Below are positions 6,690 through 22,671 of a stretch of DNA of 24,000 bases, in pieces. Numbering within the stretch: position 1 is the first letter of the stretch; the number at the start of each line of letters is the position of its first letter. The stretch covers positions 2,476,493 to 2,500,492 of the forward strand of contig CBDDKT010000002.1 in NCBI GenBank assembly GCA_965230315.1. Direction: 5' to 3'. Position numbers and translations under genes: made by a program. The stretch is from Arenicella sp. GTDB taxonomy: Bacteria > Pseudomonadota > Gammaproteobacteria > Arenicellales > Arenicellaceae. Under the pieces are notes generated by a model, which did no database searches, had not been told where the DNA came from, and was given only the letters and a program-made list of their open reading frames with translations.

Positions 6690-7223
6690 TTAACGAGGGT
6701 CGAATGGAATATGTCCATCGATGTCATTGTTACTTTGACCGGCTTGCTCGCTTACCGTGTTTTCGACTGGTTTATCTTTTTCGAAAACGCGCATATCAAG
6801 AATGTTGTTGATACGAAAGCGCGCGACACCCACAGGCTCAGTTTGACCTTTAGGAATAAACGCACTGACACCCTCAAAACGAGGAGTCTTAGCGGTAATT
6901 CCTACGGATCTCTTAAGCAAGGGATCGCCCGCATTAATGGCGGCTATCATCGGCTTTAAAACGGTTAACGCCCGCTCTGACAAAGTACCTTCAACGGAAA
7001 TATAGTTATTGCCGTCTTTCTTGCCAGTCTTGATGTTGCCGTTGTAAAACCAAGTAATTGCACCGGTATTCTGATCTACATAATCAGTGATCTTGTAGAT
7101 GTAGATAATCGGATTGCCAGATAAGTAATGATTGATGTAATCGTTACTTTTATCTTGGTTAGCTGCGCCATTAGTAGGGCTAGCTTGAGGATCATTTTTT
7201 ACTGCTTGTTGTTGCATAGTCAT
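6690..7223 (-). CDS. Hypothetical ICE backbone protein (possibly DUF3577/STY4534-like)
   Basis: Start set at ATG 7223 (MTMQQQAVK..., GGAG about 10 nt upstream) rather than the longer ORF-track start. Terminator downstream. The family hint is only a loose pattern resemblance from memory. Confidence 0.55.
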   Translation of the reverse strand: MTMQQQAVKNDPQASPTNGAANQDKSNDYINHYLSGNPIIYIYKITDYVDQNTGAITWFYNGNIKTGKKDGNNYISVEGTLSERALTVLKPMIAAINAGDPLLKRSVGITAKTPRFEGVSAFIPKGQTEPVGVARFRINNILDMRVFEKDKPVENTVSEQAGQSNNDIDGHIPFDPR

Positions 7224-7650
7224 GGTAGGAAATCTCCAGTTATTATTTAAGGAAAGAAAAATAAAAACTGCGCCTACTAAACAATGATCACTACGTATCC
7301 AATGGACATATTCATTGTCCAATGGACACAATTTTCGGAAAATCTGACTTCGGTGTTTTCAGTCAGTAATACACCTTGAAAATTGAGTCGTACTAAAGAA
7401 CGAGCATGCAAAGATTAGCGCCTCACATTGCTCATACTTGGGAATTATTGAGTGAGCTAACTCACTGCACAGGCACTGAGTGCCAAATAGAAAATCCAAT
7501 CCGTTGGCATGAATCAAGCTATCTCAATTCGAGGTAACACTCCTGTGTTCCTGCGTTATTTTTACGCCCTGTTTAGACTAATGTCAAATATGATTTTTTT
7601 GACGATAATCAATTGAAATTAATACTAATTAGTCGAAACAAAAATCGATA

Positions 7651-8517
7651 TCAAGAAGGAATAAATAATCGAAACCCGTCCTCAAGATACCATTCACTAT
7701 TCATTAACGCGTAAAAGAATGCTGTTCTCCATCCATTTAGTTCGATATCTTTTTCAGCTCCATATTGATATTTAATCTCAGAAAACCTAAGTGTTTTAGT
7801 GCTAAAGCGCTCAATACTCATCGAAGTAGAAATAAGTAATCTTGATGCTTCTTTTCCGAAACGATTTTTTAGTGCGAATTCGGAAAAATGGGAGTTCGCT
7901 CTTTGCGCGATCGCAGGCGGCCAATAACTAGGCGCGTCAACATAAAATTCAATAGCGGCAGAATGATTCTCAACTACTCTGGCGTATAGCCATTGATCAT
8001 TTTCAATCAGATGCTGATCAAAATATGGGTGAAATGCTTGGCAACCTTTGCTTGTTACAACCGAAGCCGATTTTCCACTATTACAGTCTCGGCAAGCTGG
8101 CACGAGGTTAATGGCTAAAATCGAATACAGGGGGTATTTTGATTTAACTAAATAATGATCCAGTGTGTATACATGACCGAGTCCACAGGTCGGACATATG
8201 CCTCCACTAGCGGCATTGAGTAGTTGATCATAGATTCTACGTGCGGGCTTTTTCTTAGGAACGAGATGATTTGTATAGAGGTTTTTTAATTCTTTTTTAG
8301 TCACTTCACCGACTACAGCTTCTCTATTTTTCTCAACGCAAGGGTCGATTTTATAGAGTTCGGAATTCTGTACTCGCTCCTCATAGACCTGCTCTGCATC
8401 TTGAATACATGGGTATATAGATTTGTATCGGCTAACTAGATCGGCGTCTTGAATGGTTTCTATACATAAATCGAAAATTTCTGAGGTAGCCACCTCAGGC
8501 CTGTCTATCCCTTTCAT
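7651..8517 (-). CDS. HNH endonuclease, PtuB/TIGR02646-like
   Basis: 288 aa. CPTCG...LDHYLVKSKYP...NLVPACRDCNSGK is a Cys-flanked H-N-H core. Only 2 nt separate it from the upstream ATPase gene (TAGtaATG). Confidence 0.8.
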   Translation of the reverse strand: MKGIDRPEVATSEIFDLCIETIQDADLVSRYKSIYPCIQDAEQVYEERVQNSELYKIDPCVEKNREAVVGEVTKKELKNLYTNHLVPKKKPARRIYDQLLNAASGGICPTCGLGHVYTLDHYLVKSKYPLYSILAINLVPACRDCNSGKSASVVTSKGCQAFHPYFDQHLIENDQWLYARVVENHSAAIEFYVDAPSYWPPAIAQRANSHFSEFALKNRFGKEASRLLISTSMSIERFSTKTLRFSEIKYQYGAEKDIELNGWRTAFFYALMNSEWYLEDGFRLFIPS

Positions 8518-8519
8518 TA

Positions 8520-10112
8520 CTATCCTTCATTGTCTCGACTGTAGATAAGAGAATTAAGTAATCCTCTAGCTTCTAGTCCAAACTGGTGGTCATAAAGCTC
8601 TAAAATTTCTTCGTATGAGAGGCCTTTCGCAACTTCTTTATTCAGAATACTATGAAAACCCGAGTCGCTGGCTTCTAGCTTAAAAACATCATGTGTCAAC
8701 AATCCAACATTTTCACCAAAGGTTTCTCTTTCGGGACGTTCAGCTGTCAACTCAAGCTGTTGCCGTCGCAGCATCCAAACACAACTTTTAGGAACCTCTT
8801 GTAAAACCACGGGGGAATGTGTAGCGATTAATGCAACGCCATTGCGGTCCATCAATAAATCTGAAAGAGCACGAATGAACGCCGATAGTAAAGGAGGATG
8901 CAAATGGCTTTCTGGCTCATCTATCAATATTAAGGTCTTCTCTTCTACGCTCTCGATAATTCGCGTTATCGATAATAGGACGGCTCCATGTCCGGAGCTC
9001 ATTAGCCTAAAAAGGCGGATTGCCTCTTGTTCACGCTTTTTAGATTTGAGTCCTAGTAGGCCTTTAAGATCCATTTGAGCAAAATTGTTATCCGTCTCCA
9101 ATGTGGAGATAGCGGCTTCCCATCTGGATTTTTTAGTGTCAGAACTAAAACACCCTGTTAAGCCATTGGCAAATTCAAATGCTAGGTCTTCCGGTCCTTT
9201 AAGTGCGCTAGAAATCTTAAGCTGGCTTGGCTCCTCTAAATCTTTGTCGAATTGGTCGTCTTCGGCTGCGCGTTTCTTCAAACCTATGTACGTGTAACTA
9301 ACACCTCCTTGATCTTTTTTTCTATCTGGAGGAGGCACAGAGTTATCAAAGGCACTAAATGCAACAGAGATAACCCCTGTGAAATAATCATCATCAACGA
9401 CATTTATTGATCTTCGAAAGGCTGCATATTCGTAAAAACCTCCATTTTCTGAGACATCACTTTCTAAACTCACTAGGCTATTTATCATTCCATTCAAAAG
9501 GGTTGTTTTACCAATTCCATTGCGTCCAATTATTGCGTGCATATTGGTGGGAGGCTTCGAATCTGGAGTCACTTCAAAATCTAATTCAACTCCAGAATAT
9601 CTCTCGTTAGCAGCCTTTCGATAGCAGAATTTGTATTCAGTTAACGCTGCCCCTCCATCAAGAACCCTTTTAAACTGTACTTTAATAGCTGCATAACTGA
9701 TTCCCCTTGTAATCGAAGTTTTGAAAACATCCTCCTTTAACAGTTGGTCAGTTGCACCGCCTCTGTGCGCAACATCATGCAATCCAACCAATATTTTTTT
9801 AGCTAACTCATCCGAGAGCTTTTGTTTAATATCACTGTAGTAAGAGACATCTTGACCCAGAGAAAAATACTTACGATCCAGTGAGTCGAATTGCTCTGGC
9901 ATTTCATCACAAGTAGCGGCACCAGTCTCTTGCCCTAAAAATCCTATTTTTACCTGACGGAGGTTATGGCGCTCTCCACTCTTATCAAAAACAATCATTG
10001 CAAACTGCGTTTGAAAACCAAAATCGTCCCATCTATCGATCACCAAATAAACTATTTCCTGACCAGCTGGCGGACTAAATCCTTTTTTACGTACTACATT
10101 AAATAGCTTCAT
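8520..10112 (-). CDS. ABC-type (AAA_15/AAA_21-like) ATPase with ~190-aa unknown N-terminal domain, PtuA-like core
   Basis: 530 aa. Walker A GRNGIGKTT at about residue 195, signature-like MSSGHG, Walker B/D-loop LILIDEPESHLHP, H-loop ATHSP. The N-terminal IDRWDDFGFQTQF... domain is unassigned. Confidence 0.8.
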   Translation of the reverse strand: MKLFNVVRKKGFSPPAGQEIVYLVIDRWDDFGFQTQFAMIVFDKSGERHNLRQVKIGFLGQETGAATCDEMPEQFDSLDRKYFSLGQDVSYYSDIKQKLSDELAKKILVGLHDVAHRGGATDQLLKEDVFKTSITRGISYAAIKVQFKRVLDGGAALTEYKFCYRKAANERYSGVELDFEVTPDSKPPTNMHAIIGRNGIGKTTLLNGMINSLVSLESDVSENGGFYEYAAFRRSINVVDDDYFTGVISVAFSAFDNSVPPPDRKKDQGGVSYTYIGLKKRAAEDDQFDKDLEEPSQLKISSALKGPEDLAFEFANGLTGCFSSDTKKSRWEAAISTLETDNNFAQMDLKGLLGLKSKKREQEAIRLFRLMSSGHGAVLLSITRIIESVEEKTLILIDEPESHLHPPLLSAFIRALSDLLMDRNGVALIATHSPVVLQEVPKSCVWMLRRQQLELTAERPERETFGENVGLLTHDVFKLEASDSGFHSILNKEVAKGLSYEEILELYDHQFGLEARGLLNSLIYSRDNEG

Positions 10113-10116
10113 TTGC

Positions 10117-11163
10117 TCACTTCGTTTTTTTGAATGGAATCAGCTCAAGTGTATTTATGCTACTGGGAACCACACTCAATACTTTATAGCTTTTATCATT
10201 TCGGCCCCTTCTCTCTACCTCTTCAATACGCCCATAGAAATGACACCATAGGTAGTTGCTAAAATCTTCGTCAAGGTACGCTGCTTTGATCGACTCAGCG
10301 AGCACATGGGCTGCTGGGCTTTCATCGAACATTTTCTTGGTTATATATAAAGTAGGGGCGCTTGTTGTATCGCCTACTGTGACTTTTTGGTAAAACTTTA
10401 AAACTATGCCACTAGGCAAACCTTGGGCAAAGTCAAAGTCCTTGGGGTAGACCTTATCGACTTTCACACTACCGAAATAAATGTGCTCACTAGCTTTAGT
10501 ATCGTCGTACCATTCCAATTTTTTAAAAAATTGCCCGTAGGTATTTGCGCGACACCCTTCAACTTTCAGCGGTGTGTCCCATAACTTTTGCCGACTAATT
10601 TCGAGATAGTTCGAGACCAACTCACTAAAAGAGGCGGAGGTATACCCTCTTTCAATACTGCTTATCGCTTTTTTAATTCTAGCTGATCGATTCGATGCTT
10701 TAAGTTTAGGCGTATCTATTCCCTTTTCGACTGGTTTACTTGACTCCTCAGTATGCGACTTTTTCGACTTAGTACGACTTAGAAACGTCGATACTTCGAT
10801 ATAATTTTGTTCAGTAGTGCGCCGATGCCTGTTCTTTTTTTCCTTTTTGGAATCGCCTTGATCGATGTACTCACGTCTTGCTTCTTCCTCGATAACCCAG
10901 CGGCAATCCTCTGAATGGCTACCTTTATCTTTACTTCTAAAATGTGCCTGAACATAGTTTTCGTCATCTGTGATTAACTTATCGTAGTTCACACCGACAA
11001 TTTTTACGTCAAGGTCGCCTTGGCATTCAGGCGACGAACATGAAAACGTGAATCTAGTTCTGGGAATGTCTTGACGAAAGTATTCGTTACGCGCTTGGCT
11101 GATATCGATACTGCGACCAAGTTCATGACAAAATGCTTTTTCTATATTCAAACGATCCCCCAA
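10117..11163 (-). CDS. Unknown protein: N-terminal Cys/His zinc-ribbon-like region, basic linker, unassigned C-terminal domain
   Basis: 348-aa ORF with no in-frame ATG near the 5' end. TTG at 11163 or, more likely, TTG at 11151, which has GGGGGA 4 nt upstream. Motifs FCHE, CSSPEC and HF-x7-H-x3-C. K/R/S-rich segment at about residues 100-165. 4-nt gap to the ATPase gene. Confidence 0.65.
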   Translation of the reverse strand: MGDRLNIEKAFCHELGRSIDISQARNEYFRQDIPRTRFTFSCSSPECQGDLDVKIVGVNYDKLITDDENYVQAHFRSKDKGSHSEDCRWVIEEEARREYIDQGDSKKEKKNRHRRTTEQNYIEVSTFLSRTKSKKSHTEESSKPVEKGIDTPKLKASNRSARIKKAISSIERGYTSASFSELVSNYLEISRQKLWDTPLKVEGCRANTYGQFFKKLEWYDDTKASEHIYFGSVKVDKVYPKDFDFAQGLPSGIVLKFYQKVTVGDTTSAPTLYITKKMFDESPAAHVLAESIKAAYLDEDFSNYLWCHFYGRIEEVERRGRNDKSYKVLSVVPSSINTLELIPFKKTK

Positions 11164-11177
11164 TCTGGTTCAGTTCT

Positions 11178-11206
11178 ACAATACTTCACTCTTTAAATGC
11201 TGACAA
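11178..11206 (-). promoter_or_regulatory. Sigma70-like promoter for the three-gene operon
   Basis: On the minus strand: TTGTCA (11206-11201), 17-nt spacer, TATTGT (11183-11178). Sits just upstream of the GGGGGA/TTG start region. Confidence 0.4.
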
Positions 11207-11297
11207 GAAAAGTATTATGCAGTTGCTCGATTGTGCGTAAAAGTTGTGCGTTAACTCCGCAGGAGTTATCCATGACTTTTTCCACATGAGAGCTGTA

Positions 11298-11396
11298 GTA
11301 CTTATCCACAGATTTTCACTTCATGGCATAGCCATTAAAAAGGATCATCCAAAAGATCCGTTCATTGCTGAGAAGGGAAAATCTGTGGGTAAGTAC
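11298..11396. repeat. 19-nt inverted repeat pair (1 mismatch) flanking 61 nt, each arm containing a DnaA-box-like 9-mer
   Basis: GTACTTATCCACAGATTTT (11298-11316) versus AAAATCTGTGGGTAAGTAC (11378-11396). The interior has hairpins atggc-ata-gccat and ggatc-N8-gatcc. Confidence 0.8.
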
Positions 11397-11420
11397 GAAC
11401 GAGAAATGTAAGGAGTATCG

Positions 11421-12305
11421 CTAACCCAAATAGTGACGGGTAATGTCAATTCGTGAGTGCCCCAATTCTCCAGAGAGAATTAGCCGAGCTTTTTCGTCTA
11501 GAGCTTTCTCATTTTCATCGAGCTGACCTCTACTCTTACCACCAAGACGCGGCGGCTTCATCCCATTTGTAAGTTCGAGGTAACGTTGTTGGGCGTAGTG
11601 ATAACGCAAACCATGTGTTGGAGGCACTTGAGAGCCGGCCAATATGTAATTTCGATGCGACAGGTATTGATCGTAATTCATTCTTGATGGAATCAAACTT
11701 CGCTTGGGTGCATACGCACGAATTTCCTCAAGCAATACTCTCTGCCGATCATTCAGAATTGGAATACTTCGAGCTCGGCCACCCTTTGTCCAAGATGCCA
11801 CCAATCTTATATGGTCATCATGCTCGGCTTTAGAGAGCGTAAATTTTGCTGCCTCTTCTCGGCGAAGCCCAAACTCTTCTTGCAGGCGCGCACTCAAATT
11901 CAAGTAACGTGGCAAGTCTTCTTTTTGTTCATCGGTTAGTTGAAACGCTTTATCGGTTGCGGGTAACCGTTGGCGATTATTAATACCAAGATCTTTGTTT
12001 CTTCTTGGAATGATATTCTGTTTGCCAATTTTTTCAGCCCACCACCTCAATGCTGACATACGGTTTTTAATTGTGCCGTTTGAAACAGTCTTGCCGGTGT
12101 GCTCTGAAACAGTTGATTGCCAATATCGAACCAATGCCCAGATGTGTTTAGTCTTTAACGATGAGACAGTCATATTTTTAAAACCAAGATCATCGAGCTG
12201 CTTAGCAATAAGTTGCAGCGAGCGATTCCTCTCAGCCCTAGTCCCGTAACTGCCGTCCCGGTTTTTATTGACCATTTTTCTTAAACCATAGTTTAGTTTT
12301 TTCAT
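11421..12305 (-). CDS. Tyrosine recombinase / integrase-family protein
   Basis: Start chosen at MKKLNYGL (ATG 12305). Catalytic pattern TKGGRARSIP (Arg), HGLRYHY (H-x-x-R), LGHSRIDITRHY (His...Tyr). The N-terminal region resembles the Integrase_1-type N-domain (from memory). Confidence 0.8.
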   Translation of the reverse strand: MKKLNYGLRKMVNKNRDGSYGTRAERNRSLQLIAKQLDDLGFKNMTVSSLKTKHIWALVRYWQSTVSEHTGKTVSNGTIKNRMSALRWWAEKIGKQNIIPRRNKDLGINNRQRLPATDKAFQLTDEQKEDLPRYLNLSARLQEEFGLRREEAAKFTLSKAEHDDHIRLVASWTKGGRARSIPILNDRQRVLLEEIRAYAPKRSLIPSRMNYDQYLSHRNYILAGSQVPPTHGLRYHYAQQRYLELTNGMKPPRLGGKSRGQLDENEKALDEKARLILSGELGHSRIDITRHYLG

Positions 12306-12817
12306 AACGAATCTCAAATTGGTTAGTGTTAATCCCGTCTCAATACGCAAGGTATTGATGGTTACGCGGGAAATTTATGTCGCTCGTTACACGACAGCCC
12401 TAAGGCTCGTTATGATTCGAAAAGTCATAACGTATTGCTAAGTAAAACCCGTATATGGATAAATCATAATTACCTCCTTTTGGATTTCGGATTGAATAGA
12501 AATACACCATCCACTTTCGCAAGAAAATGATGCACAGATAGGCTCCACGAAAAGAGCTGGTTAGACTCTTCATTACAGAAGATGAATGAATAGATGGATG
12601 AATTCGATTACTCGAATTAAACCGATAAGAAAACTATTTGGGAATAAATGCCACAATCAGAGTTGACTGAGACGAGTTGGAAAAATCGCTAATAAGCGGA
12701 GTTAAAAATCGATTCGAGTAATAGCTCATCGCTTTTTTCGAAACTGTGAGACGAGCAAGATGCTGCTTATTTGTCTACGTATTCACTGTAGCATAAGAAA
12801 ATTTGTGTTGAAAGTTT

Positions 12818-13058: not shown

Positions 13059-13727
13059 TCACAACCCCAGTTCGCTGATCCTTTTATGCTTAAACGAAAC
13101 TTCGCCAGATAATATTTTGTCGTTCGGCATTCCTAATTTATCAATCATTGTTTTGGCTTTCGCTGTCTTTTTAATAATGTCATCACGCGTCAAATTAGGC
13201 TCAATTTTCTTAGCGTAAGAACTCGATCGATCAAAAATCATTCTGACTTTCCGACGAAGACTTTTGATCATTTCGGTTGCAAGCTCTGCTTCCAAATAGC
13301 CACCAGAATGAGCTGTTCTGATATACCGAAAAGCAAGATCTACTTGAAGCATCATCTTGGCTAAAAGATTACTGTATTCCGTCGAATATGATATCTCATG
13401 TGTGATCGGCTTATTACGAGTCAATAGTGCTATTTTCATGCCTTCTTGTTCTGCTACGTCGAGCCCAATCTTAGCTTTCGCAATGTATTGATCGGTTATA
13501 TCTCGGACTTCATCGAAGCGTAAATCCATCTCCATCAGAGCAGCTTCCGCATAGGGATTCTCCTTCATTCCCATCGCAAAGAGAGCATTTAATTTTTTCT
13601 GGGCAAAGAAAAACCCCGGAATGAACTGCTTGGTTCGAGTTCCGCCTTTGAATAATAAATCAGCGTCGCTACTGTGAAGCGTAAGAACTATCTTGCTTAG
13701 AAACATGACTATTTTCCATTGAATCAT
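13059..13727 (-). CDS. ICE protein, PFL_4669/TIGR03761-like
   Basis: 222 aa. The N-terminal VLTLHSSDADLLFKGG matches the remembered LTLHT..A..LW.G signature of this family. Either candidate start (13727 or 13706) overlaps the upstream gene. Confidence 0.6.
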   Translation of the reverse strand: MIQWKIVMFLSKIVLTLHSSDADLLFKGGTRTKQFIPGFFFAQKKLNALFAMGMKENPYAEAALMEMDLRFDEVRDITDQYIAKAKIGLDVAEQEGMKIALLTRNKPITHEISYSTEYSNLLAKMMLQVDLAFRYIRTAHSGGYLEAELATEMIKSLRRKVRMIFDRSSSYAKKIEPNLTRDDIIKKTAKAKTMIDKLGMPNDKILSGEVSFKHKRISELGL

Positions 13728-14241
13728 TCGACTTAGAGAGGTCTCTTACCACCATCCACACATCGTTTATTGGCACCTTCGAATAATGATGTGTTCTCAC
13801 CAACCGGACCACTCGATTACCTTTGAAACGTCTCCATGCATCGATAATAAATTGACGATCACCGGCATCCAGTTGAGTAGGTCTACCTTGCCCTGGCAGC
13901 TCCGAATCCATGATTTTTCGCTTTGATACGATCTTAGTTTGATGCACGCCAGTTAATTCACTGATTACATTTTTTGAGGCTCCAAACTGAATTAAGACGC
14001 CGACTTCATCTTCTACTATTTCACTGGTAAATGCGGCTTTGACTCTGTTCTTGAATGCCTTCATATCGACAACAATACTAAGGCGCCCATCTTGACAGTT
14101 GATCTCGGCATTTTTAACCATGTCGGCCATGAGTCGATCGAGGACATTCGCGGGCAATCCTTGCATTGAATTTAGAAAAGGGTCACGACTGTGCTCTAGA
14201 AACATATTGAACACGTCGATCATCGAGGTTGGATTAGTCAT
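13669..14241 (-). CDS. DUF2857-like ICE protein
   Basis: 190 aa. QFGASKNVISELTGVHQTKIVSKRKIM....GQGRP...D......IIDAWRRF fits the DUF2857 pattern (LGAS..M....FG....V..RR......GR.......LW..W). GGAG 11 nt upstream of the ATG. Confidence 0.6.
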   Translation of the reverse strand: MTNPTSMIDVFNMFLEHSRDPFLNSMQGLPANVLDRLMADMVKNAEINCQDGRLSIVVDMKAFKNRVKAAFTSEIVEDEVGVLIQFGASKNVISELTGVHQTKIVSKRKIMDSELPGQGRPTQLDAGDRQFIIDAWRRFKGNRVVRLVRTHHYSKVPINDVWMVVRDLSKSNDSMENSHVSKQDSSYASQ

Positions 14242-14330
14242 GGCTAAGTATCTCCGTTATAAAACCGTGAATCGCAAAACCCATATGACCATTCCCAATA
14301 GCGAACACTAATTTGGTGGAGAAGAACATT

Positions 14331-15608
14331 CTATCGCTGGTCTGAAAATAGGTCTTTTAAGCCCATCTTCTCTGACGTGTTATTTGGAAGTTGGGATTTC
14401 TCCCGTGACTCAGGTTGAGCCTCCAATTGTGCCGCTGAATGTTCTTCGGCTGTTCCCCTATCAGTATCGCTTATCGCGACATTCCGTTGCAGTGTGCTTC
14501 TTTGTATTCGCTTACGATCACTTGGCTGATAGTAAGGAACTGCTTTATAACTTAACGCTACCATATTACGTAATTCTATGGCCACACATTCTTGACTATC
14601 GTCTATTATATTTTCGTTAGCCTTTACGGTGTATATGGCGGTCCTATCGAGTTGTTTTCCGAGTTCAAATACTTGACTCAACATCGCTTCAAATACTTTT
14701 TTACCGAGTGGGCGATTCTCACTGATCGCATATCCTCGATGCAGTTCCCATAGAAAATTTCTGTCTATGAGTAGATAAGATGTTCCTTCAAATACGAATG
14801 CGTCTTTCGAATTTTTAGAGAATGTGTTTTGCTCGATTAGGGTCAGTACGACCTTCATGGTTTGTTGAAAGACACTTGCCGCGTTCAATCGTTCTCCATT
14901 CACATGACTTTCTACTTGCTCAATAATTGAATAAAAGGGATTGATCCTCTCCTGATAGAAGCCTGAAACACTGTTCAAAATAAAAGGGTATATGCCAGCC
15001 TTTGAAAATCGCTCGATGGTTTGAGGAGATAAAACTTTATCGATGAGGTGGATGTTTAAGCTGTTAGAGCGAAAGCAACTGCGTCCACCACCGCCGCTTT
15101 TATCACATTCCGAAATGTCGTTTAGAGTCAGTAGAAAAGGACTGACAGCAATGCCCGCTCTCTTAAATTCAAATGCCTGATAGCGCTTAATGATATGCCT
15201 GATTGAGAGTGCGCAAAATATCGCAAATGTCCAAAGCGCTTTCGTTTCTTGGTCTTTCTCCGATGACCCGAACTCAAATATTGACGCTCTTCGTTTGCGC
15301 AGTGCCTTATAAATTGTTTCAAAATAATGGCGATCTAAAACTTCGCCGAGGACTCGCTCATAGTCCTCGACCTTCTGAATGACCGGACTATAAAATGTTT
15401 GAAACTCATCTTTTTCAATCAATGCGATTTGGCGAATACTTTCCTCAATAGGTGTTCGGTGCACTCCCATGTCGCTGTCGTTAGCATCTAGACTCAGCGG
15501 TTGCGCTTGATGCTTGTTCGCAACGCTCATGCGATTCCAGATAAATACTCCAGCCACAATGACGACGCCAATCAGAACACCAACCCATGATTCGCCTAAG
15601 GATTTCAT
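14331..15608 (-). CDS. Membrane-anchored ICE protein, unknown (possible degenerate MobH/TraI_2-like domain)
   Basis: 425 aa with N-terminal TM helix WVGVLIGVVIVAGVFIW. FQTFYSPVIQKVEDY...LDRHYFE...ALWTFAIFCALSIRHIIKR loosely parallels F..L..PVIERYA...H.LE...W....F.LLHDVGK of MobH relaxases, but without the HD residues. Confidence 0.55.
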   Translation of the reverse strand: MKSLGESWVGVLIGVVIVAGVFIWNRMSVANKHQAQPLSLDANDSDMGVHRTPIEESIRQIALIEKDEFQTFYSPVIQKVEDYERVLGEVLDRHYFETIYKALRKRRASIFEFGSSEKDQETKALWTFAIFCALSIRHIIKRYQAFEFKRAGIAVSPFLLTLNDISECDKSGGGGRSCFRSNSLNIHLIDKVLSPQTIERFSKAGIYPFILNSVSGFYQERINPFYSIIEQVESHVNGERLNAASVFQQTMKVVLTLIEQNTFSKNSKDAFVFEGTSYLLIDRNFLWELHRGYAISENRPLGKKVFEAMLSQVFELGKQLDRTAIYTVKANENIIDDSQECVAIELRNMVALSYKAVPYYQPSDRKRIQRSTLQRNVAISDTDRGTAEEHSAAQLEAQPESREKSQLPNNTSEKMGLKDLFSDQR

Positions 15609-15958
15609 GAGGATAATGTCAGCTTAAGAAAACGTAGTATCTCTGCATTGGAGTATTGCTTTTCAGCGAAAAGATGAGCGGTAAGCAAATCATGTCGTTT
15701 TGCGTAACTCGCAAGTGGCTCCTTAAACGGGCTCCATACCTCTGAATTATCATTGTTGGTGATTCGCACAAACCAAATGTCTAAGTCACTTATCGCGGTG
15801 ATAAGACCAAATTCGGATTCGGCATCATCCAGTTTGGTAAGCATCTCAGGCAATGGTTCAAGCATATCTAAATACTCCTCTAGGCCATAAAACTGCTCCA
15901 GTACTCGAAGCTTTATGGCGTTACTTTGTGTTGCATCAATTTGCATTAACTTATGCAC
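15605..15958 (-). CDS. Hypothetical protein (acidic, 117 aa)
   Basis: ATGA overlap with the downstream 425-aa gene. No motif recognised. Confidence 0.5.
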   Translation of the reverse strand: MHKLMQIDATQSNAIKLRVLEQFYGLEEYLDMLEPLPEMLTKLDDAESEFGLITAISDLDIWFVRITNNDNSEVWSPFKEPLASYAKRHDLLTAHLFAEKQYSNAEILRFLKLTLSS

Positions 15959-17010: not shown

Positions 17011-17183
17011 AATTCTTTGTGTAAATCTCTGATTAAGAGTGGAGACAACGACTAGAAAGTGTCGTTGTTGGAAATCTGGTTTGCAGCTAGTTTCAACCAG
17101 CAGTTAGCTTAATACACATTACCCTAGCATAAACTTAAACCGGATAATCAACATTTGTCCATATTGGTAATTTATTTTTTGAT

Positions 17184-17218
17184 GTTTAATAAGGGCAAGA
17201 AAGTTGCCCTTATTAAAC
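17184..17218. repeat. Hairpin, 15-bp perfect stem (gtttaataagggcaa/ttgcccttattaaac), loop gaaag
   Basis: Read directly from the sequence; 19 nt downstream of the 269-aa gene stop. The T-run is on the wrong side for a minus-strand terminator. Confidence 0.75.
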
Positions 17219-17236
17219 AATGCCGTAGCGTAATAA

Positions 17237-18046
17237 TTAGATTTTCTGCATTCGATCTACAGCTTCATCTGTGAATTTGAACGCCATTTCAGCATCTGGA
17301 TCGAGGAGATTTTTAAGTGTTGGTTTTGAAATGGCAGCGTAGGTATTCCTACTCAAAGACTCTAGAGATAACTGCAAATGATAGGCTTCCATATTTTCGA
17401 AAATCTCCTCGTCGTTAAAGCTAAATTTATTTGGATGATTAGGATCATCTATCAGGATTGCGGCAGCTTTTAAAACAAATACAACTTCCATGATAATTTT
17501 CATCATAAAGACAAAATCTTCGTCATCATCGTCCACGACGATTGTCGGGTTCTCAAGCCATTTTCCGAGCGCCTCAATCATGGGTTGCAGCAAATAATCA
17601 GGTAAATGCTGTGGTAAATATGACTCTGGCCCCATACTTTCTAATCTAGGCATCAATTCCTTGATCGCTGTGTCTACCGATATTTTTTTAGTTTGAAGCT
17701 TGGATTCTTTTTTAATCAGAGATTCCATAACTTCATGCTGTTGGACAAGGAAGCGTCGGTAGTTATCTGAAGTATCAGCCAAATTATGTGACTCTCGATA
17801 CGCGTCAAAATGTGATTGATAGTTTGATTTGTTGTAGAAGCGCTCACCGAAAAACTGGTCTCTAGATTCGCAAACTGGCTCGTAAATTACTTGCTTCCAA
17901 CCAGGGTATCCAATCTCAGCTGCAACTAACTTTCTTGCTTGTGTACGGCTTATACTATTATTTTTTACAAGCTTACTTACACGTCGATTTAATGATGTGT
18001 GTGAATAACCATTAGACGTAAAACGCGAATAATTTTTTTTGGGCAT
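17237..18046 (-). CDS. Hypothetical protein, 269 aa, acidic patch VVDDDDEDF
   Basis: Long ORF on the same strand as its neighbours. No catalytic motif recognised. Confidence 0.55.
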   Translation of the reverse strand: MPKKNYSRFTSNGYSHTSLNRRVSKLVKNNSISRTQARKLVAAEIGYPGWKQVIYEPVCESRDQFFGERFYNKSNYQSHFDAYRESHNLADTSDNYRRFLVQQHEVMESLIKKESKLQTKKISVDTAIKELMPRLESMGPESYLPQHLPDYLLQPMIEALGKWLENPTIVVDDDDEDFVFMMKIIMEVVFVLKAAAILIDDPNHPNKFSFNDEEIFENMEAYHLQLSLESLSRNTYAAISKPTLKNLLDPDAEMAFKFTDEAVDRMQKI

Positions 18047-18266
18047 GACTAATTCCTAAAATACGGAGTTTCTGACCCCACTCAGTAACCATATTGAAAT
18101 TAGTTGTTTTAGATAATAACCATACAATCAATGACCGGTTATTTAGCGTAGTTCGCACGCAAACTATTTTATGCCTGGAGTTTAGGCATGTGGGATAAAA
18201 GGCCTCGCTGCAACCCATAAATAATATACAACACAAATGTAATAGCGTAAATACAGCCGGATAGTT

Positions 18267-18839
18267 TTAACCTTCGGCAGCTTCACTAAAGCAAGCGATT
18301 AGAGATTCAGCTTGCTCTAAATGTATCGACGCATCTTCTATAAAGGACAATACTAATAGATTTTTAAGCCATTCAAACATAGCAACCATTTCCAAAATAT
18401 CAGAATTTTTAATCTCTAAATCTTTGAGACTACTGGGATGTACAACTCTGTTTCTAATAGTGATACATCGTTTAAAACGCTGCCAATCTTGGTTACTTCC
18501 TTTAATGTTTCTTGCAACGCCCATTACAGCACCTGAGGCGTCAAATGAAAAAGATAGGTTTCGTGCAAAGCCGTTTCGGACAAAAATTTCTTTTTCTTTA
18601 CCGTCTTTTTGCACTCTTCTTTTATCTTGTACGGCTAGATAAAAATCATGTCCAATTGATTCAGGTGATTCCGATAGAAAAATATTAGTTTTCAAGGCGG
18701 ATGAAACACCGTCAACAAATTGAAATACAGATCGACAAAAAGCCCTTCTCATTTCCTGACAATCTTCTAAATGCAGCTGTTCACCAAAGAACATTACCTC
18801 ATCCACTAAGGCTTCGATAAAACTTGTATTACTGTCCAT
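18267..18839 (-). CDS. HEPN-like protein (Rx4H motif)
   Basis: 190 aa, predicted helical. ITIRNRVVHPSS contains R129-x4-H134, the HEPN RNase signature spacing. Starts 30 nt after the SMC-like ATPase gene on the same strand. Confidence 0.55.
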   Translation of the reverse strand: MDSNTSFIEALVDEVMFFGEQLHLEDCQEMRRAFCRSVFQFVDGVSSALKTNIFLSESPESIGHDFYLAVQDKRRVQKDGKEKEIFVRNGFARNLSFSFDASGAVMGVARNIKGSNQDWQRFKRCITIRNRVVHPSSLKDLEIKNSDILEMVAMFEWLKNLLVLSFIEDASIHLEQAESLIACFSEAAEG

Positions 18840-18869
18840 ACCTAGTCAGCGACTGAAAATTTAAGAAGG

Positions 18870-20789
18870 CTAAACAACATGGACATTTTTAAGCTTTATT
18901 TCCGAAGCATTTTCAATACCGTCAAATGATGCGCCAGTCATAATAACTTGACCCCCATCATTGAACTCGCTGAGTAAATCAATAAACGGTTGAACTATAA
19001 AATTGAGACCATCACCGAGAGCCTCCCCGATAAACTCGGCGGGGGTATCAATAATGATGAGTCCGGGGAAGTTTGATGCATCATGTCGAATAAGTGATAG
19101 CAAGCCATATTGATATGCCATAAGCACGAAAAGAGTATCCGTTCCACCCAAAAGACGTTTCCACCGCTTATCACCAATTCTTAGGGTAAAGGTTGACTTT
19201 GACAGGTACACACCCAACGGACTATGCTTCCAGCTATCCGGTCGGATAGCATTAATTGCATTAAGGTATTCGTTCATACCCTCTTCTAACCAAGCAGCAC
19301 GCTCCTCAAAGTCGGCTGAACCTTGAGACTCTTTTACCGCCTCGGCCAATGGTTTTATTTTATCCTCAAGATCAGTGATCTTAGTGGCAATAGCAACATC
19401 GAGACCCACTGCGCTTTCTACCCTCTCCAATTGAATATTACGCTCATTCAATTGTCCAATCTCTAGGTCGATTTGACTAATATTTTCCTGTACGAGCGCG
19501 CCAACCGCTGCGCGTGCTGGCTTAAGCTGTAATTCAATCCGCTTAAGATCTTCACCCAAATCTCTAGCTTCTGATAACACTTGGTCATGCTCGCTGATTG
19601 CAACAGATAGAAGCTCCTCAGCTTCTTTAACCTCTGCGCTTAAACGATCAGACTCAAATTTGATTCGTTCTTTCCCAATCTCTGCCGTCAACACAGGCTG
19701 AACAACCTCTTGATGACAAAGCCCACATTGCCCTAAGTGAACAGCCGCATTACTTACATTCTGGTCGCATGAAGGGCAATGTGTGATCTTTAGGTCGGAC
19801 AAGACTTCACTGGCATCACTGGCTCTACCAATTCTATCAATCTCATCCACCAGCGTATTCCGCAACTGCCTTAAAGCTGCGATCCGTTCCTCCATGCCAT
19901 GCAAGTTCTCTTGCCTTTGCTCCATACGTAGAACCAGTTCCGATCGCTGCTTCGCCAGCGTTTCAATACGGCTTTTATCACTCTTATCGATTTCAGAACT
20001 GGTGGCTTGATTAACGATGCTTTCCTTACTTGCTTCAAGTTCTGAGATTTTGTTGATGTTAGCCGCCTTCGCTTTTGCAATGGACACAGACGTGACACTC
20101 ACCGACAAATTATCGTCATCAACGAGATCTCTCGCTAAATCATTGAGAGTGTCACTGTATTGATCTTTACGTGCCTCAAGCTTCTCTACTTGGCGTCTCA
20201 GGTCGATTAACTCACCATAATCGTCTGTGTATATTTGATCCGCTAGACCTAAAAAGTTCTGAATACAAGCCAGCAATTCCGCTTCGGGTTGCTTATCTAC
20301 CAGATCAGACCAAAATGTCTGACGCCGGTAAAGGTGTCTATACATTGAGCGGAAACTCAATTCTGGCCAAGTCTGGCCCGACATCGGATTACCTTTGGGG
20401 AAATTTAATAAAGGAATATCTAATTTTTCCAGCATCCAATGTTGAAACTCTTTTGTCGATTTCGGCTCATTATCGATAAAGACTTTTGATTTTGCGCCAG
20501 GCTCTCGCCATCGCCGACCTATCATGTAGGTAATGTCTTCATCTTCATCGAATGATATGCACGCACTCATTGATACATATTTATCAGCTAAAAAGTCTTC
20601 TGTTTCGCTTGCGAAAGGCTGCTCGCCTGAATCTCCTAAAACATAGTCCAAAGTTTGCATCCACTTTGTTTTACCGGTGTTTGGTACGCCAATAATAAGA
20701 TTCACACCATCATGCAAAACTAAACGTTCTGTGCTTCCATCAGACAATGCTCGCTCAACGTACTTTATCGAAAGTAGTGGTTTTCTCAT
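18870..20789 (-). CDS. lmuB: SMC/Rad50-like ABC ATPase (DUF3732-type), Lamassu LmuB / ABC-3C ATPase
   Basis: 639 aa. Walker A GVPNTGKT followed by LDYVLG, long heptad-rich middle, CPSC(338-341)...CGLC(355-358) at the midpoint (hook-like), LGGTD signature-like, Walker B GLIIIDTP. ATGA overlap with the upstream gene. Confidence 0.75.
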   Translation of the reverse strand: MRKPLLSIKYVERALSDGSTERLVLHDGVNLIIGVPNTGKTKWMQTLDYVLGDSGEQPFASETEDFLADKYVSMSACISFDEDEDITYMIGRRWREPGAKSKVFIDNEPKSTKEFQHWMLEKLDIPLLNFPKGNPMSGQTWPELSFRSMYRHLYRRQTFWSDLVDKQPEAELLACIQNFLGLADQIYTDDYGELIDLRRQVEKLEARKDQYSDTLNDLARDLVDDDNLSVSVTSVSIAKAKAANINKISELEASKESIVNQATSSEIDKSDKSRIETLAKQRSELVLRMEQRQENLHGMEERIAALRQLRNTLVDEIDRIGRASDASEVLSDLKITHCPSCDQNVSNAAVHLGQCGLCHQEVVQPVLTAEIGKERIKFESDRLSAEVKEAEELLSVAISEHDQVLSEARDLGEDLKRIELQLKPARAAVGALVQENISQIDLEIGQLNERNIQLERVESAVGLDVAIATKITDLEDKIKPLAEAVKESQGSADFEERAAWLEEGMNEYLNAINAIRPDSWKHSPLGVYLSKSTFTLRIGDKRWKRLLGGTDTLFVLMAYQYGLLSLIRHDASNFPGLIIIDTPAEFIGEALGDGLNFIVQPFIDLLSEFNDGGQVIMTGASFDGIENASEIKLKNVHVV

Positions 20790-22524: not shown

Positions 22525-22671
22525 TTAGAGTCCCCCTTAGAACTAACAGACAGAATGTAATGAGTATCCAAAATACGCTGAGTTACGCGAAACAATCTCG
22601 CAGACCGTCGAAAATTCGCATACACATTCATTAATATAACCAAGTAAATTTTCCCATTTTTATCTAATCTA

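What the first reader, a model, noticed from the sequence alone, without database searches (positions are those of the whole stretch)
7651..11206. Three-gene operon: unknown Zn-ribbon protein + N-terminally extended ABC ATPase + HNH nuclease (Septu-like core with unexplained extra parts)
Seen: three minus-strand ORFs separated by 4 nt and 2 nt (TGAgcaaATG, TAGtaATG) sit behind a TTGTCA-17-TATTGT promoter-like site. Gene 2 (530 aa) carries ABC/AAA_21-type motifs GRNGIGKTT, MSSGHG and LILIDEPESHLHP. Gene 3 (288 aa) carries CPTCG...LDHYLVKSKYP...NLVPACRDCNSGK, the PtuB/TIGR02646-type HNH pattern. An ATPase+HNH pair is the Septu (PtuAB) core, but two things are not explained by that. (i) About 190 residues (IDRWDDFGFQTQF... 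domain) precede the P-loop, whereas in the PtuA proteins I remember the P-loop is near the N terminus. (ii) Gene 1 (348 aa) has no ATG start (TTG with a GGGGGA Shine-Dalgarno). It has an N-terminal FCHE / CSSPEC / HF-x7-H-x3-C arrangement reminiscent of CoiA-type zinc ribbons, then a K/R/S-rich linker, then a C-terminal domain with no motif I recognise. Inference: the layout (extra gene + PtuA-like + PtuB-like) parallels retron-Septu operons (ncRNA, RT, ATPase, HNH), yet gene 1 has no RT motifs, so it may be a different sensor or regulator module. The operon sits next to its own tyrosine recombinase inside ICE cargo, in the same element as a Lamassu system and a TA pair.
Basis: partly seen in the sequence, partly recalled or inferred. 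Interest (0 to 1): 0.85.

Follow-up and report, generated by a model that had tools for sequence, protein, structure and literature searches.

The report
Two-gene Septu-type defence cassette in ICE
The ATPase and HNH nuclease genes are an ordinary member of a large, already catalogued two-gene Septu-type anti-phage family carried as cargo in an integrative conjugative element, and the upstream zinc-ribbon gene is most likely a separate, uncharacterised mobile-element gene rather than a third component.

Summary
The three ORFs, their 4-nt and 2-nt spacings and all quoted motifs are real.

**Genes 2 and 3.** They are a complete, catalytically intact member of a large, catalogued two-gene family. 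Both match PADLOC candidate PDC-M01 over their full length. PDC-M01 calls duplicate Septu calls. Gene 2 also matches one PADLOC PtuA model over its full length.

**N-terminal domain of gene 2.** The ~155-residue domain is not an extra part. It is conserved in thousands of full-length homologues and lies inside those models.

**Co-occurrence.** In 80 of 80 diverse genomes the ATPase has the HNH partner directly downstream. None of the 80 has a gene-1 relative.

**Gene 1.** It belongs to a separate, unannotated family of 343 clusters. It has a CCHC zinc site and an SSB/OB-like C-terminal domain. Relatives occur in ICEs, conjugative plasmids and defence islands, beside many different neighbours.

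**This lineage.** Gene 1 precedes the pair only in this PFGI-1-class ICE lineage, including a 69%-identical relative. Closer siblings (92–94%) keep gene 1 but carry a different two-gene cassette in the same slot.

**Best reading.** This is a two-gene Septu-family system in an ICE cargo slot, downstream of an independent accessory gene that probably supplies its promoter. An accessory role for gene 1 is not excluded (about 25%).

The parts
11178..11206 (-). Promoter-like site TTGTCA-17-TATTGT upstream of gene 1. It is the probable but unproven driver of gene 1 and of whatever cassette follows it.
   Evidence: 9/12 match. The number of such sites in the region is not above the shuffled expectation. 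The sequence is conserved (93%) in sibling ICEs as far as 11273.
10117..11151 (-). Gene 1: 344 aa from the second TTG (348 aa if from 11163). It is a member of an unannotated family, and an accessory gene of mobile elements rather than a Septu component.
   Evidence: There are no Pfam, NCBIfam, PADLOC, PHROG or PDB sequence hits.
10879..11151 (-). Gene 1 N-terminal domain (residues ~5-95 in 348-aa numbering). It has an invariant C42, C47, H83, C87 set and a nearly invariant C12, read as a putative CCHC zinc-binding module.
   Evidence: Alignments A1 and A4. The AlphaFold model is of low confidence here, so the fold is not established.
10639..10878 (-). Gene 1 K/R/S-rich variable linker (residues ~96-175), probably disordered.
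   Evidence: The region is poorly conserved and full of indels in A4. pLDDT is below 50.
10129..10491 (-). Gene 1 C-terminal beta-rich domain (residues ~225-345) with weak but consistent SSB/OB-fold resemblance.
   Evidence: pLDDT is 73-85. Foldseek top hits are almost all SSB proteins in two independent libraries: PDB at E~1e-3 with target-normalised TM (TMt) 0.45-0.52, and BFVD at E 3e-4.
7620..10125 (.). Variable cargo segment. It is the stretch with no counterpart in sibling ICEs that are 93-97% identical on both sides; they carry a 1.9-kb segment with two other genes instead.
   Evidence: The left break is at the last codons and stop of gene 1. The right break is ~30 nt after the HNH stop. 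No flanking repeats were found.
8520..10112 (-). Gene 2: PtuA-like ABC ATPase (PADLOC PDC-M01A), 530 aa. It has Walker A K202, signature MSSGH 371-375, Walker B D398-E399 and H-loop H432.
   Evidence: E 2e-195 and 1e-184, full length. (AAA_21 and AAA_15 above cut-off). (all motif residues invariant). (pLDDT 83). (best PDB structural matches are PtuA proteins).
9648..10112 (-). N-terminal domain of the ATPase (residues 1-155): a beta-sheet plus helical bundle, with an invariant W28-(D)-D30, K55 and LGQ 85-87. It is a family-specific domain of unknown role, and a candidate sensor.
   Evidence: It has no Pfam or PDB relative. It is found only in PDC-M01A models, PtuA model PDLC00282 and the C-terminus of PDC-S34.
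7651..8517 (-). Gene 3: HNH nuclease partner (PADLOC PDC-M01B), 288 aa. It has a Cys4 zinc site (C108, C111, C142, C145) and the catalytic residues D120-H121, N137 and N146.
   Evidence: E 1e-88, full length. (phrog_10378, HNH endonuclease). (these residues are invariant in 21 homologues). (a homologue lies directly downstream of the ATPase in 80 of 80 loci).
11421..12350 (-). Upstream backbone gene: Phage_int_SAM_2 plus Integrase_1 protein. It is a conserved ICE gene, not specific to the operon.
   Evidence: Orthologues lie next to AcaB in L002, L090, L096 and L102.
6690..7223 (-). Downstream backbone gene (177 aa from M37 of the mechanical 213-aa ORF). It is the first conserved ICE gene after the cargo slot.
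   Evidence: It is 98.9% identical to the 177-aa gene of L005. The same synteny is seen in L090 and L102.

Best explanation
The locus is a composite of two units.

Unit 1 is genes 2 and 3. They form a self-contained two-gene Septu-family system, PADLOC candidate PDC-M01.
- Shown: both proteins are full-length, catalytically intact family members, and the pair is always found together.
- Inferred by analogy with E. coli Septu and retron-Eco7 PtuAB: the ABC ATPase oligomerises and clamps the HNH nuclease between its C-terminal regions.
- Inferred: nucleotide binding keeps the nuclease off. A phage cue releases nuclease activity on DNA and/or tRNA, which arrests the infected cell.
- Inferred: the family-specific 155-residue N-terminal domain may sense that cue.

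Unit 2 is gene 1. It is an independent accessory gene of mobile elements. It has a CCHC zinc module, a basic linker and an SSB/OB-like domain. It is probably a nucleic-acid-binding protein (inferred), and its role is unknown.

In this PFGI-1-class ICE lineage the pair occupies a cargo slot that begins at the stop codon of gene 1. It has no room for its own promoter, so it is probably transcribed from the gene-1 promoter or from within gene 1 (inferred). The three genes are therefore likely one transcription unit but not one functional system. In closer sibling ICEs the slot holds a different two-gene cassette.
For: Genes 2 and 3 as a known pair:
- gene 2 matches PDC-M01A (3-507 of 510, E 2e-195) and PtuA model PDLC00282 (8-518 of 520, E 1e-184). 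Gene 3 matches PDC-M01B (1-282 of 285, E 1e-88).
- (PMC11811056): PDC-M01 is an unpublished PADLOC candidate whose calls duplicate Septu calls.
- at least 6,688 homologues at E<=1e-20, and the best hits are full-length at 508-535 aa.
- in 80 species-level loci the HNH partner is directly downstream in 80 of 80. There is no gene-1 homologue in any of them. No other third gene is conserved (largest neighbour cluster 3 of 72).
- the same result holds with profile HMMs, with 0 hits at E<=0.1.
- an annotated E. coli record shows the pair alone next to icd.
- the best PDB structural matches of the ATPase model are retron and stand-alone PtuA.

Gene 1 as a separate unit:
- sibling ICEs are 93-97% identical on both flanks. 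They keep gene 1 (92-94%) but carry a 246-aa weak AbiGi-like gene and a 330-aa gene instead of the pair. The breakpoints are sharp.
- gene-1 relatives occur in about a dozen other contexts, never with the ATPase or HNH.
- the ATPase is interrupted in several natural copies. Gene 1 is intact in L101, and apparently also in one of the split-ATPase copies (inferred only from matching contig length).

Mechanism by analogy:
- literature on PtuAB.
- Septu and retron-Eco7 cleave tRNA-Tyr.
Against: - The 4-nt spacing implies co-transcription with gene 1.
- The adjacency is not a recent accident. A relative with gene 1 at 69% identity and the ATPase at 71.5% has the same order. The two genes have therefore co-diverged side by side.
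- Distant gene-1 relatives are packed tightly against other defence-type modules: type I R-M, an E2/E1 ubiquitin-like operon, a Zeta-toxin-like gene, and HNH plus Mrr-helicase. That pattern would also fit a promiscuous accessory factor.
- No experiment exists on this subfamily. Sequence similarity to the solved PtuA and PtuB proteins is weak and local, so the mechanism is transferred by analogy only.
Confidence: 0.7

Rival explanations
1. Lineage-specific three-gene system. In this ICE clade, gene 1 has been recruited as a sensor or regulator of the Septu-type pair, much as retrons co-opted PtuAB. The gene-1 protein would bind a nucleic-acid cue through its zinc and OB-like domains and control the ATPase, perhaps through the ATPase N-terminal domain.
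For: - The spacing is 4 nt and there is a single upstream promoter-like region.
- The order gene 1 then ATPase is conserved, with parallel divergence of 69% and 71.5%, in L101.
- The three genes recur together in several samples.
- There is a precedent: retron PtuA uses an N-terminal extension to dock its regulator.
Against: - None of 80 other ATPase-HNH loci has gene 1.
- Siblings with 92-94% identical gene 1 have lost the pair and kept gene 1.
- In L101 the ATPase carries an in-frame stop while gene 1 is intact.
- The ATPase N-domain is the same in thousands of homologues that have no gene 1.
- Conserved order inside one ICE lineage is expected from synteny alone.
Confidence: 0.1
2. Promiscuous accessory or gatekeeper. 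The gene-1 family is a general nucleic-acid-sensing or regulatory protein that works with whatever defence cassette lies beside it: the Septu-type pair here, an AbiG-like pair in siblings, and R-M, E1/E2 or nuclease-helicase modules elsewhere. This would be comparable in logic to the shared regulators found upstream of diverse defence systems.
For: - Gene-1 relatives lie within 0-90 nt, on the same strand, of different defence-type genes in L092, L094, L096 and L098, and also in the window and L005/L090.
- The cargo slot starts exactly at the gene-1 stop codon, so gene 1 supplies the transcriptional context.
- The predicted OB-like and zinc domains suit nucleic-acid binding.
Against: - On at least four conjugative or mobilisable plasmid families the relative is a solo gene inside or beside transfer genes. 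It faces a convergent small ORF, and no defence gene is adjacent.
- In L001, L002 and L004 the immediate neighbours are unknown or backbone genes.
- No helix-turn-helix or other known regulator domain was found.
- Accessory regions of mobile elements are rich in defence genes anyway, so proximity is weak evidence.
- The sample is small, about 12-15 contexts.
Confidence: 0.15
3. Gene 1 is itself a stand-alone defence or anti-defence gene of mobile elements. For example, it could be an ssDNA-binding protein that protects or senses transferred DNA. It would then be merely adjacent to the Septu-type pair.
For: - Its distribution is restricted to ICEs, conjugative plasmids and defence islands.
- It has no consistent partner gene. 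The upstream ~265-aa neighbours are unrelated to one another.
- It has SSB-like fold hits.
- It is retained intact when the neighbouring ATPase is lost or broken.
Against: - It has no recognisable effector or enzymatic domain.
- The structural model is poor for two thirds of the protein.
- It has no hit to any PADLOC model.
- It has no phage homologue.
- This reading is compatible with the best explanation rather than opposed to it.
Confidence: 0.2

Closest known systems
Septu (PtuA ABC ATPase + PtuB HNH nuclease; Doron 2018; E. coli structures 8EE4/8EEA)
   Same: - It is a two-gene operon with the ATPase first and the HNH nuclease second.
- Gene 2 matches PADLOC PtuA model PDLC00282 over its full length.
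- Pfam AAA_21 and AAA_15 score above cut-off.
- PtuA proteins are the best structural matches in the PDB.
- The ATPase and HNH catalytic residues are intact.
   Different: - Sequence similarity to solved PtuA is confined to ~80 residues around Walker B and the H-loop. E is 5e-3 for stand-alone PtuA and 1e-7 for retron PtuA.
- There is an additional conserved 155-residue N-terminal domain.
- The HNH partner is 288 aa. It is not recognised by TIGR02646 or by Pfam HNH at threshold.
- It matches solved PtuB only at E 0.04-0.16.
- This subfamily has not been tested experimentally, as far as the searched literature shows.
PADLOC candidate system PDC-M01 (unpublished 'phage defence candidate')
   Same: Both proteins match the A and B models end to end at E 1e-195 and 1e-88. 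They are adjacent in the expected order. This is the family the pair belongs to.
   Different: Nothing in the pair itself differs. PDC-M01 is a computational candidate whose calls overlap Septu calls, not a validated system. It has no third gene.
Retron type I-A (Ec78/Eco7, Ec83) = retron + PtuAB
   Same: It is an extra upstream component plus PtuA plus PtuB. The PtuA has an N-terminal extension that docks the regulator. Retron PtuA is the best PDB hit of gene 2.
   Different: - There is no reverse transcriptase domain in gene 1 or its neighbours.
- There is no ncRNA match.
- NCBIfam PtuA NF041760 scores 52 bits against a cut-off of 500.
- The N-terminal domain here occurs in thousands of two-gene loci without any upstream partner.
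Defence-cargo hotspots of mobile elements (SXT ICE hotspot 5; P2/P4 hotspots)
   Same: A fixed slot between conserved backbone genes holds alternative defence cassettes in closely related elements. Literature: bioRxiv 10.1101/2020.12.16.423150 and PMC9122126.
   Different: - The ICE family is different. This one is PFGI-1 class by NCBIfam markers.
- Only two alleles of the slot were seen here, and the second allele is only weakly defence-like. Its AbiGi match has E~1e-3, below the Pfam cut-off.
SSB / OB-fold proteins, and CoiA-type zinc ribbons (for gene 1)
   Same: The C-terminal domain model gives SSB proteins as nearly all top hits in two libraries. The N-terminal C-x4-C ... H-x3-C arrangement is invariant.
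   Different: - No sequence-level relationship to SSB, CoiA or any Pfam or PDB family was found.
- Fold scores are weak (TM 0.3-0.5, rmsd above 6 A).
- The zinc domain is not confidently modelled.

Membership tests
Septu (PtuA/PtuB) | Adjacent, co-oriented ABC-type (AAA_15/AAA_21) ATPase gene followed by an HNH nuclease gene | tested here: met
   The arrangement is conserved in 80 of 80 homologous loci.
Septu (PtuA/PtuB) | ATPase recognised by a PtuA profile | tested here: met
   PADLOC PtuA1|PtuA PDLC00282 matches at E 1e-184, covering 8-518 of 520. However, NCBIfam NF041760 (retron-type PtuA) scores only 52 bits against a cut-off of 500.
Septu (PtuA/PtuB) | Nuclease recognised as PtuB / TIGR02646 family | tested here: not met
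   - There is no NCBIfam hit at E<=0.1.
- Pfam HNH scores 13.6 bits against a cut-off of 21.4.
- A profile of 21 homologues hits solved PtuB chains only at E 0.04-0.16.
- The HNH core does hit PDC-M62B, another candidate that duplicates Septu calls.
Septu (PtuA/PtuB) | Structural similarity of the ATPase to solved PtuA | tested here: met
   The Foldseek top 38 PDB hits are all PtuA chains, at E 9e-10 to 2e-6. TM-scores are low (0.25-0.36) because the domain arrangement differs.
Septu (PtuA/PtuB) | Anti-phage activity that depends on the ATPase and HNH motifs | not testable with these tools
   The motifs are intact and invariant. There is no experiment.
PADLOC PDC-M01 | PDC-M01A and PDC-M01B proteins encoded side by side | tested here: met
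   Both are full-length, at E 2e-195 and 1e-88, and the genes are 2 nt apart.
Retron type I-A (retron-Septu) | Reverse transcriptase gene next to PtuAB | tested here: not met
   Gene 1 and the flanking ORFs have no RT domain. Gene 1 has no Pfam hit in any of 30 family members.
Retron type I-A (retron-Septu) | msr/msd non-coding RNA upstream | tested here: not met
   An Rfam scan of 7000-12800 at E<=1 gave only two chance matches, far below gathering scores. Rfam coverage of retron RNAs is incomplete, so this is weak on its own.
Hypothetical three-gene system (gene 1 + ATPase + HNH) | Gene 1 relatives co-localised with ATPase-HNH pairs across lineages | tested here: not met
   - None of 80 pair loci has a gene-1 relative.
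- None of ~12 other gene-1 contexts has the pair.
- Co-localisation occurs only inside one ICE lineage: the window, L102-L105 and L101.
- It is lost in L005 and L090.
PFGI-1-class integrative conjugative element (context) | ICE backbone marker proteins | tested here: met
   Matches were found to PilL2 TIGR03748, TIGR03759, PFL_4695 TIGR03765, TIGR03747, RAQPRD TIGR01690 and SXT_TraD TIGR03743. TraD is above its cut-off; the others are just below theirs. AcaB, DUF2857 and Integrase_1 were also found.
SSB/OB-fold (gene 1 C-terminal domain) | Five-stranded OB barrel superimposable on SSB | tested here: inconclusive
   Hits are consistent but weak: E 3e-4 to 1e-3, TM 0.3-0.5. They come from a model built on 7 sequences with pLDDT 73-85 in that domain.
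CoiA-type zinc ribbon (gene 1 N-terminal domain) | Recognition by a CoiA or zinc-ribbon profile | tested here: not met
   There is no Pfam or NCBIfam hit. The invariant C42/C47/H83/C87 set supports a zinc site of some kind.

The most novel reading that the evidence does not exclude
The gene-1 family is about 343 clusters of ~320-345-aa proteins with a CCHC zinc module, a basic linker and an SSB/OB-like domain. It has no annotation anywhere. It could be an unrecognised nucleic-acid-sensing accessory or stand-alone immunity (or counter-immunity) protein of mobile elements. It would plug, as part of an operon, into diverse defence modules: the Septu-type pair here, an AbiG-like pair, type I R-M, an E2/E1 ubiquitin-like operon, and nuclease-helicases. 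In this ICE lineage it would modulate the Septu-type pair.
Probability: 0.2. Interest if true: 0.6.

Novelty: new member of a known kind. Interest (0 to 1): 0.3.

Why it matters
For the finding as stated, it matters little. The ATPase-HNH pair is one more member of a very large, already catalogued Septu-type family, and the 'extra parts' are explained.

Three points remain useful:
1. This abundant subfamily has no experimental or structural characterisation. It has a 155-residue N-terminal domain and a 288-aa HNH partner that standard PtuB models miss. The N-domain is a good candidate for the phage-sensing part of a Septu-type system.
2. The locus defines a cargo slot in PFGI-1-class ICEs, beginning at the gene-1 stop codon, where cassettes without their own promoter are exchanged.
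3. Gene 1 belongs to a sizeable, wholly unannotated family tied to mobile elements and defence islands. It would be worth a systematic neighbourhood analysis and a simple binding assay.

Tried and rejected
- **Clean recent insertion.** I first read the pair as recently inserted cargo. I revised this after L101 showed the same gene order at ~70% identity. A mosaicism test on gene 1 was negative.
- **A common upstream partner for gene 1.** The ~265-aa upstream neighbours in L002/L004, L092 and L096 are unrelated to each other.
- **The convergent ~130-aa plasmid partner.** It is homologous among three gammaproteobacterial plasmid families but not in Beijerinckia. It is absent from the window and from the other loci.
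- **Flanking repeats at the cassette borders.** None was found.
- **Retron-like ncRNA.** None was found.
- **Sequence searches of gene 1.** Pfam, NCBIfam, PADLOC, PHROGs and the PDB gave nothing, using both the single sequence and profiles.
- **The ATPase N-domain profile against the PDB.** Nothing was found.
- **More loci for gene 1.** Viral contigs gave none. Metagenome contigs gave only two. The broad alignment was too diverse for locus scanning.
- **A third large protein search with the broad alignment.** It added only one protein.
- **Source genome.** The exact-sequence look-ups found no record, so the host organism remains unidentified.
- **A promoter inside the 3' end of gene 1** (10274-10245). 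It is conserved in siblings, but it lies in constrained coding sequence, so this is uninformative.

Full report
**1. Observation**

The three minus-strand ORFs exist exactly as described: 10117-11163, 8520-10112 and 7651-8517. The junctions read TGAgcaaATG and TAGtaATG, and every quoted motif is present.

There are three corrections.
- Gene 1 most likely starts at the second TTG (11151), giving 344 aa. That codon aligns with the initiator Met of all homologues. It lies 4 nt after GGGGGA. The 344-aa form is the one found in public annotation.
- The TTGTCA-17-TATTGT site is real but is a 9/12 match. Such sites are no more frequent here than in shuffled sequence.
- About 195 residues precede the P-loop. 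The structure model shows that residues ~156-195 are the usual first strands of the ABC fold. The separate N-terminal domain is therefore ~1-155.

**2. Genes 2 and 3**

*PADLOC and other family models.*
- Gene 2 matches PDC-M01A end to end (3-507 of 510, E 2e-195).
- Gene 2 also matches one PtuA model end to end (PDLC00282, 8-518 of 520, E 1e-184).
- Gene 3 matches PDC-M01B end to end (E 1e-88).
- PDC-M01 is an unpublished PADLOC 'phage defence candidate'. Its calls were reported to duplicate Septu calls (PMC11811056).
- Pfam AAA_21 and AAA_15 score above their cut-offs.

*Family size and conserved residues.*
- At least 6,688 proteins match at E<=1e-20. The best 120 are 508-535 aa long and cover 95-100% of the query. 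They come from cyanobacteria, many proteobacterial groups and Desulfobacterota.
- In the ATPase, Walker A K202, the signature MSSGH, Walker B D398-E399 and H-loop H432 are invariant.
- In the nuclease, the Cys4 zinc site and D120-H121, N137 and N146 are invariant.

*Comparison with solved structures.*
- The AlphaFold model of the ATPase is good, with mean pLDDT 83.
- Its best PDB matches are PtuA chains, from type I-A retrons and from E. coli Septu.
- At sequence level the relation to solved PtuA and PtuB is weak and local.
- TIGR02646 and NF041760 do not recognise the proteins at threshold.
- The pair is therefore a member of the PDC-M01 family. It belongs to Septu in the broad sense, but it is a subfamily distinct from the characterised ones.

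**3. [quoted passage not shown]

It is not an addition peculiar to this locus.
- It is conserved across the family, with invariant W28, D30, K55, L85-G86-Q87 and Y91-Y92.
- It is confidently folded.
- It lies inside the PADLOC models. On its own it hits PDC-M01A at 9e-44 and PDLC00282 at 1.5e-39. It also hits the C-terminus of the single-gene candidate PDC-S34 at 2e-8.
- It has no Pfam or PDB sequence relative.
- Retron PtuA uses an N-terminal extension to dock its RT and ncRNA (PMC12819146). Here the domain occurs in thousands of loci with no upstream partner, so it is more likely a built-in sensor or oligomerisation domain. This last step is inference.

**4. Is gene 1 part of the system?**

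*Forward test.*
- I fetched 80 species-level genomic loci encoding ATPase homologues of 42-50% identity.
- All 80 have a gene-3 homologue immediately downstream.
- None has a gene-1 homologue within +/-6 kb by tblastn, or by profile HMMs at E<=0.1.
- No other upstream or downstream gene is conserved. The largest neighbour cluster is 3 of 72.
- An annotated E. coli record shows the pair alone beside icd.

*Reverse test.*
- Gene 1 has only 7 close homologue clusters. A profile search finds 343 representative clusters of ~310-345 aa.
- In the contexts I could read, no ATPase or HNH homologue is present. These contexts are L001, L002/3, L004, L092, L094, L096/7, L098, four plasmid families and J. 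lividum.
- One plasmid carries both genes, 125 kb apart.

**5. The ICE context**

The window is a PFGI-1-class ICE.
- Markers found: PilL2, TIGR03759, PFL_4695, TIGR03747, RAQPRD and TraD, plus AcaB, DUF2857 and Integrase_1.
- Sibling elements L005, L006, L090 and L091 share its gene order from RadC to DUF2859.
- They are 93% identical over gene 1 and its upstream region, and 97% identical from 7619 leftwards. Window 7620-10125 is replaced in them by a 1.9-kb segment.
- That segment encodes a 246-aa protein with a weak AbiGi match (E~1e-3, below cut-off) and a 330-aa unknown protein.
- The left breakpoint is at the stop codon of gene 1. The right breakpoint is ~30 nt after the HNH stop.
- There are no flanking repeats.

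The 'tyrosine recombinase' upstream is a backbone gene. It is conserved next to AcaB in relatives where gene 1 lies elsewhere.

Elements L102-L105 are 97.6% identical to the window over 15 kb and carry the same three genes. They have different cargo where the window has Lamassu, which indicates a second variable slot.

**6. A complication that I had to take on board**

- L101 carries gene 1 at 69% identity. It is followed, after 44 nt, by the same ATPase at 71.5% identity. The regions are colinear over 2.5 kb.
- The adjacency is therefore old within this ICE clade, and the two genes have diverged in parallel.
- Gene 1 shows no mosaicism.
- The simplest history is that the clade ancestor had gene 1 followed by the pair. 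The L005/L090 branch then replaced the pair and kept gene 1.
- This raises the chance of a functional link. It is also what plain synteny predicts.
- Evidence for independence includes the state of the ATPase copies. In L101 the ATPase has an in-frame stop at codon 118 while gene 1 is intact. Split ATPase products of 253+275 aa and 184+292 aa occur among the near-identical copies.

**7. What gene 1 is**

- It has no Pfam, NCBIfam, PADLOC, PHROG or PDB relative, as a single sequence or as a profile.
- Across 30 diverse members the invariant residues are F40, C42, C47, H83, C87 and G231. C12, N59, Y60 and W89 are nearly invariant. I read this as a CCHC zinc site.
- The middle of the protein is a variable basic linker.
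- The AlphaFold model is confident only for residues ~225-345. That domain returns SSB/OB-fold proteins as nearly all top hits in the PDB and in BFVD, with weak scores.
- I infer a nucleic-acid-binding protein. This is inference.

*Where its relatives live.*

| Context | Neighbours of the gene-1 relative |
|---|---|
| Providencia, Vibrio and Serratia plasmids | Solo gene beside or inside transfer genes, facing a convergent small ORF |
| Beijerinckia conjugative plasmid | Facing a convergent small ORF near the record end; no tra genes annotated in the stretch read |
| L094 | Between hsdS and hsdR of a type I R-M operon |
| L096 | 13 nt after a Zeta-toxin-like gene, near Hachiman, in another ICE |
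| L098 | Overlapping the E1 gene of a Multi_ubiq/E2-E1 operon, with a divergent HTH/M78 pair |
| L092 | Between a small HNH gene and an Mrr-helicase gene |

Its neighbours are unrelated to one another. The family is tied to mobile elements and defence islands, and it has no fixed partner.

**8. Mechanism (best reading, confidence 0.7)**

- Genes 2-3 act as a two-gene Septu-type system.
- By analogy with E. coli Septu and retron-Eco7, the ATPase oligomer holds the HNH nuclease between its C-terminal regions. Nucleotide state restrains the nuclease, and a phage cue unleashes cleavage of DNA and/or tRNA. The sources are PMC12819146, PMC12065111 and the abstracts listed.
- These steps are transferred by analogy and are not shown for this subfamily.
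- The pair has no room for its own promoter. It is probably transcribed with gene 1, so the locus is likely an operon in the transcriptional sense only.
- Rival readings are a lineage-specific three-gene system (0.10), a promiscuous accessory role for gene 1 (0.15), and gene 1 as an independent defence or anti-defence gene. The last is compatible with the main reading.

**9. Novelty and score**

- The pair is a new member of a known, catalogued kind.
One is a family feature. The other is most likely a neighbouring gene.
- Residual interest lies in three things: the uncharacterised gene-1 family, the N-terminal domain of this abundant Septu subfamily, and the cargo slot.
- Interest is 0.3.

Noticed in passing
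window 18870-22524 (minus strand): This is a Lamassu-type system, with LmuB (639 aa) and LmuC (190 aa). Its first gene (388 aa) matches Hachiman HamA/DUF1837 models far better (E 5e-59) than LmuA models (E 1e-12). It therefore looks like a Lamassu with a HamA-like nuclease head.
   Followed up: partly
window ~17108-23000 versus L102 1-2046: A second variable slot lies between ParB and RadC. ICE copies 97.6% identical to the window elsewhere carry a DUF2326/CTD10 protein plus a 384-aa gene where the window has Lamassu plus 190-aa and 269-aa genes.
   Followed up: partly
L101 1201-2652; cluster members P0275/P0276 and P0279/P0280: Several natural copies of this ATPase are interrupted. There is an in-frame stop at codon 118 in L101, and split products of 253+275 aa and 184+292 aa among near-identical copies. 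Gene 1 is intact in L101, and apparently also in one of the split copies, judged only from matching contig length. This suggests frequent inactivation of the pair, or assembly errors.
   Followed up: partly
L098 2312-5566: A gene-1 relative (28% identity) is the third gene of a Multi_ubiq/Prok-E2_E plus ThiF-E1 operon. It overlaps the E1 gene by 13 nt. A divergent HTH plus M78-peptidase pair lies upstream. This looks like a ubiquitin-like defence operon with a CapH/CapP-type regulator.
   Followed up: no
L094 677-11787: A gene-1 relative (24% identity) sits inside a type I R-M operon. The order is hsdM, hsdS, a 672-aa gene, the relative, a 173-aa gene, hsdR, and a DUF8426/Mrr_cat gene.
   Followed up: no
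L087 5903-6295, L088 5918-6313, L089 5912-6295, L106 1213-1617, L107 6836-7333: On plasmids the gene-1 relative is always faced by a convergent ~130-aa ORF that overlaps its 3' end. The three gammaproteobacterial ORFs are homologous to each other. The Beijerinckia one is not detectably so. No counterpart exists in the window.
   Followed up: partly
window 9648-10112 (ATPase residues 1-155): The N-terminal domain also matches the C-terminal 105 residues of the PADLOC single-gene candidate PDC-S34 (E 2e-8). It therefore appears to be a modular domain shared between defence candidates.
   Followed up: no
window 6690-7331: The mechanical 213-aa ORF is probably a 177-aa gene starting at 7223 (M37). 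This matches the 177-aa orthologue, 98.9% identical, in sibling ICEs.
   Followed up: yes
L001 10321-10964 and 13349-16881; L096 1-3082: Related ICEs carry other defence cargo near their gene-1 relatives. L001 has a PIN-MazE pair and a Gabija-like OLD-ATPase plus UvrD helicase. L096 has Hachiman HamA plus a helicase.
   Followed up: no
window 13059-15958: The block AcaB, DUF2857, 425-aa gene and 117-aa gene is conserved (42-62% identity) in all related ICEs examined. It is backbone, not a toxin-antitoxin pair specific to this element.
   Followed up: partly
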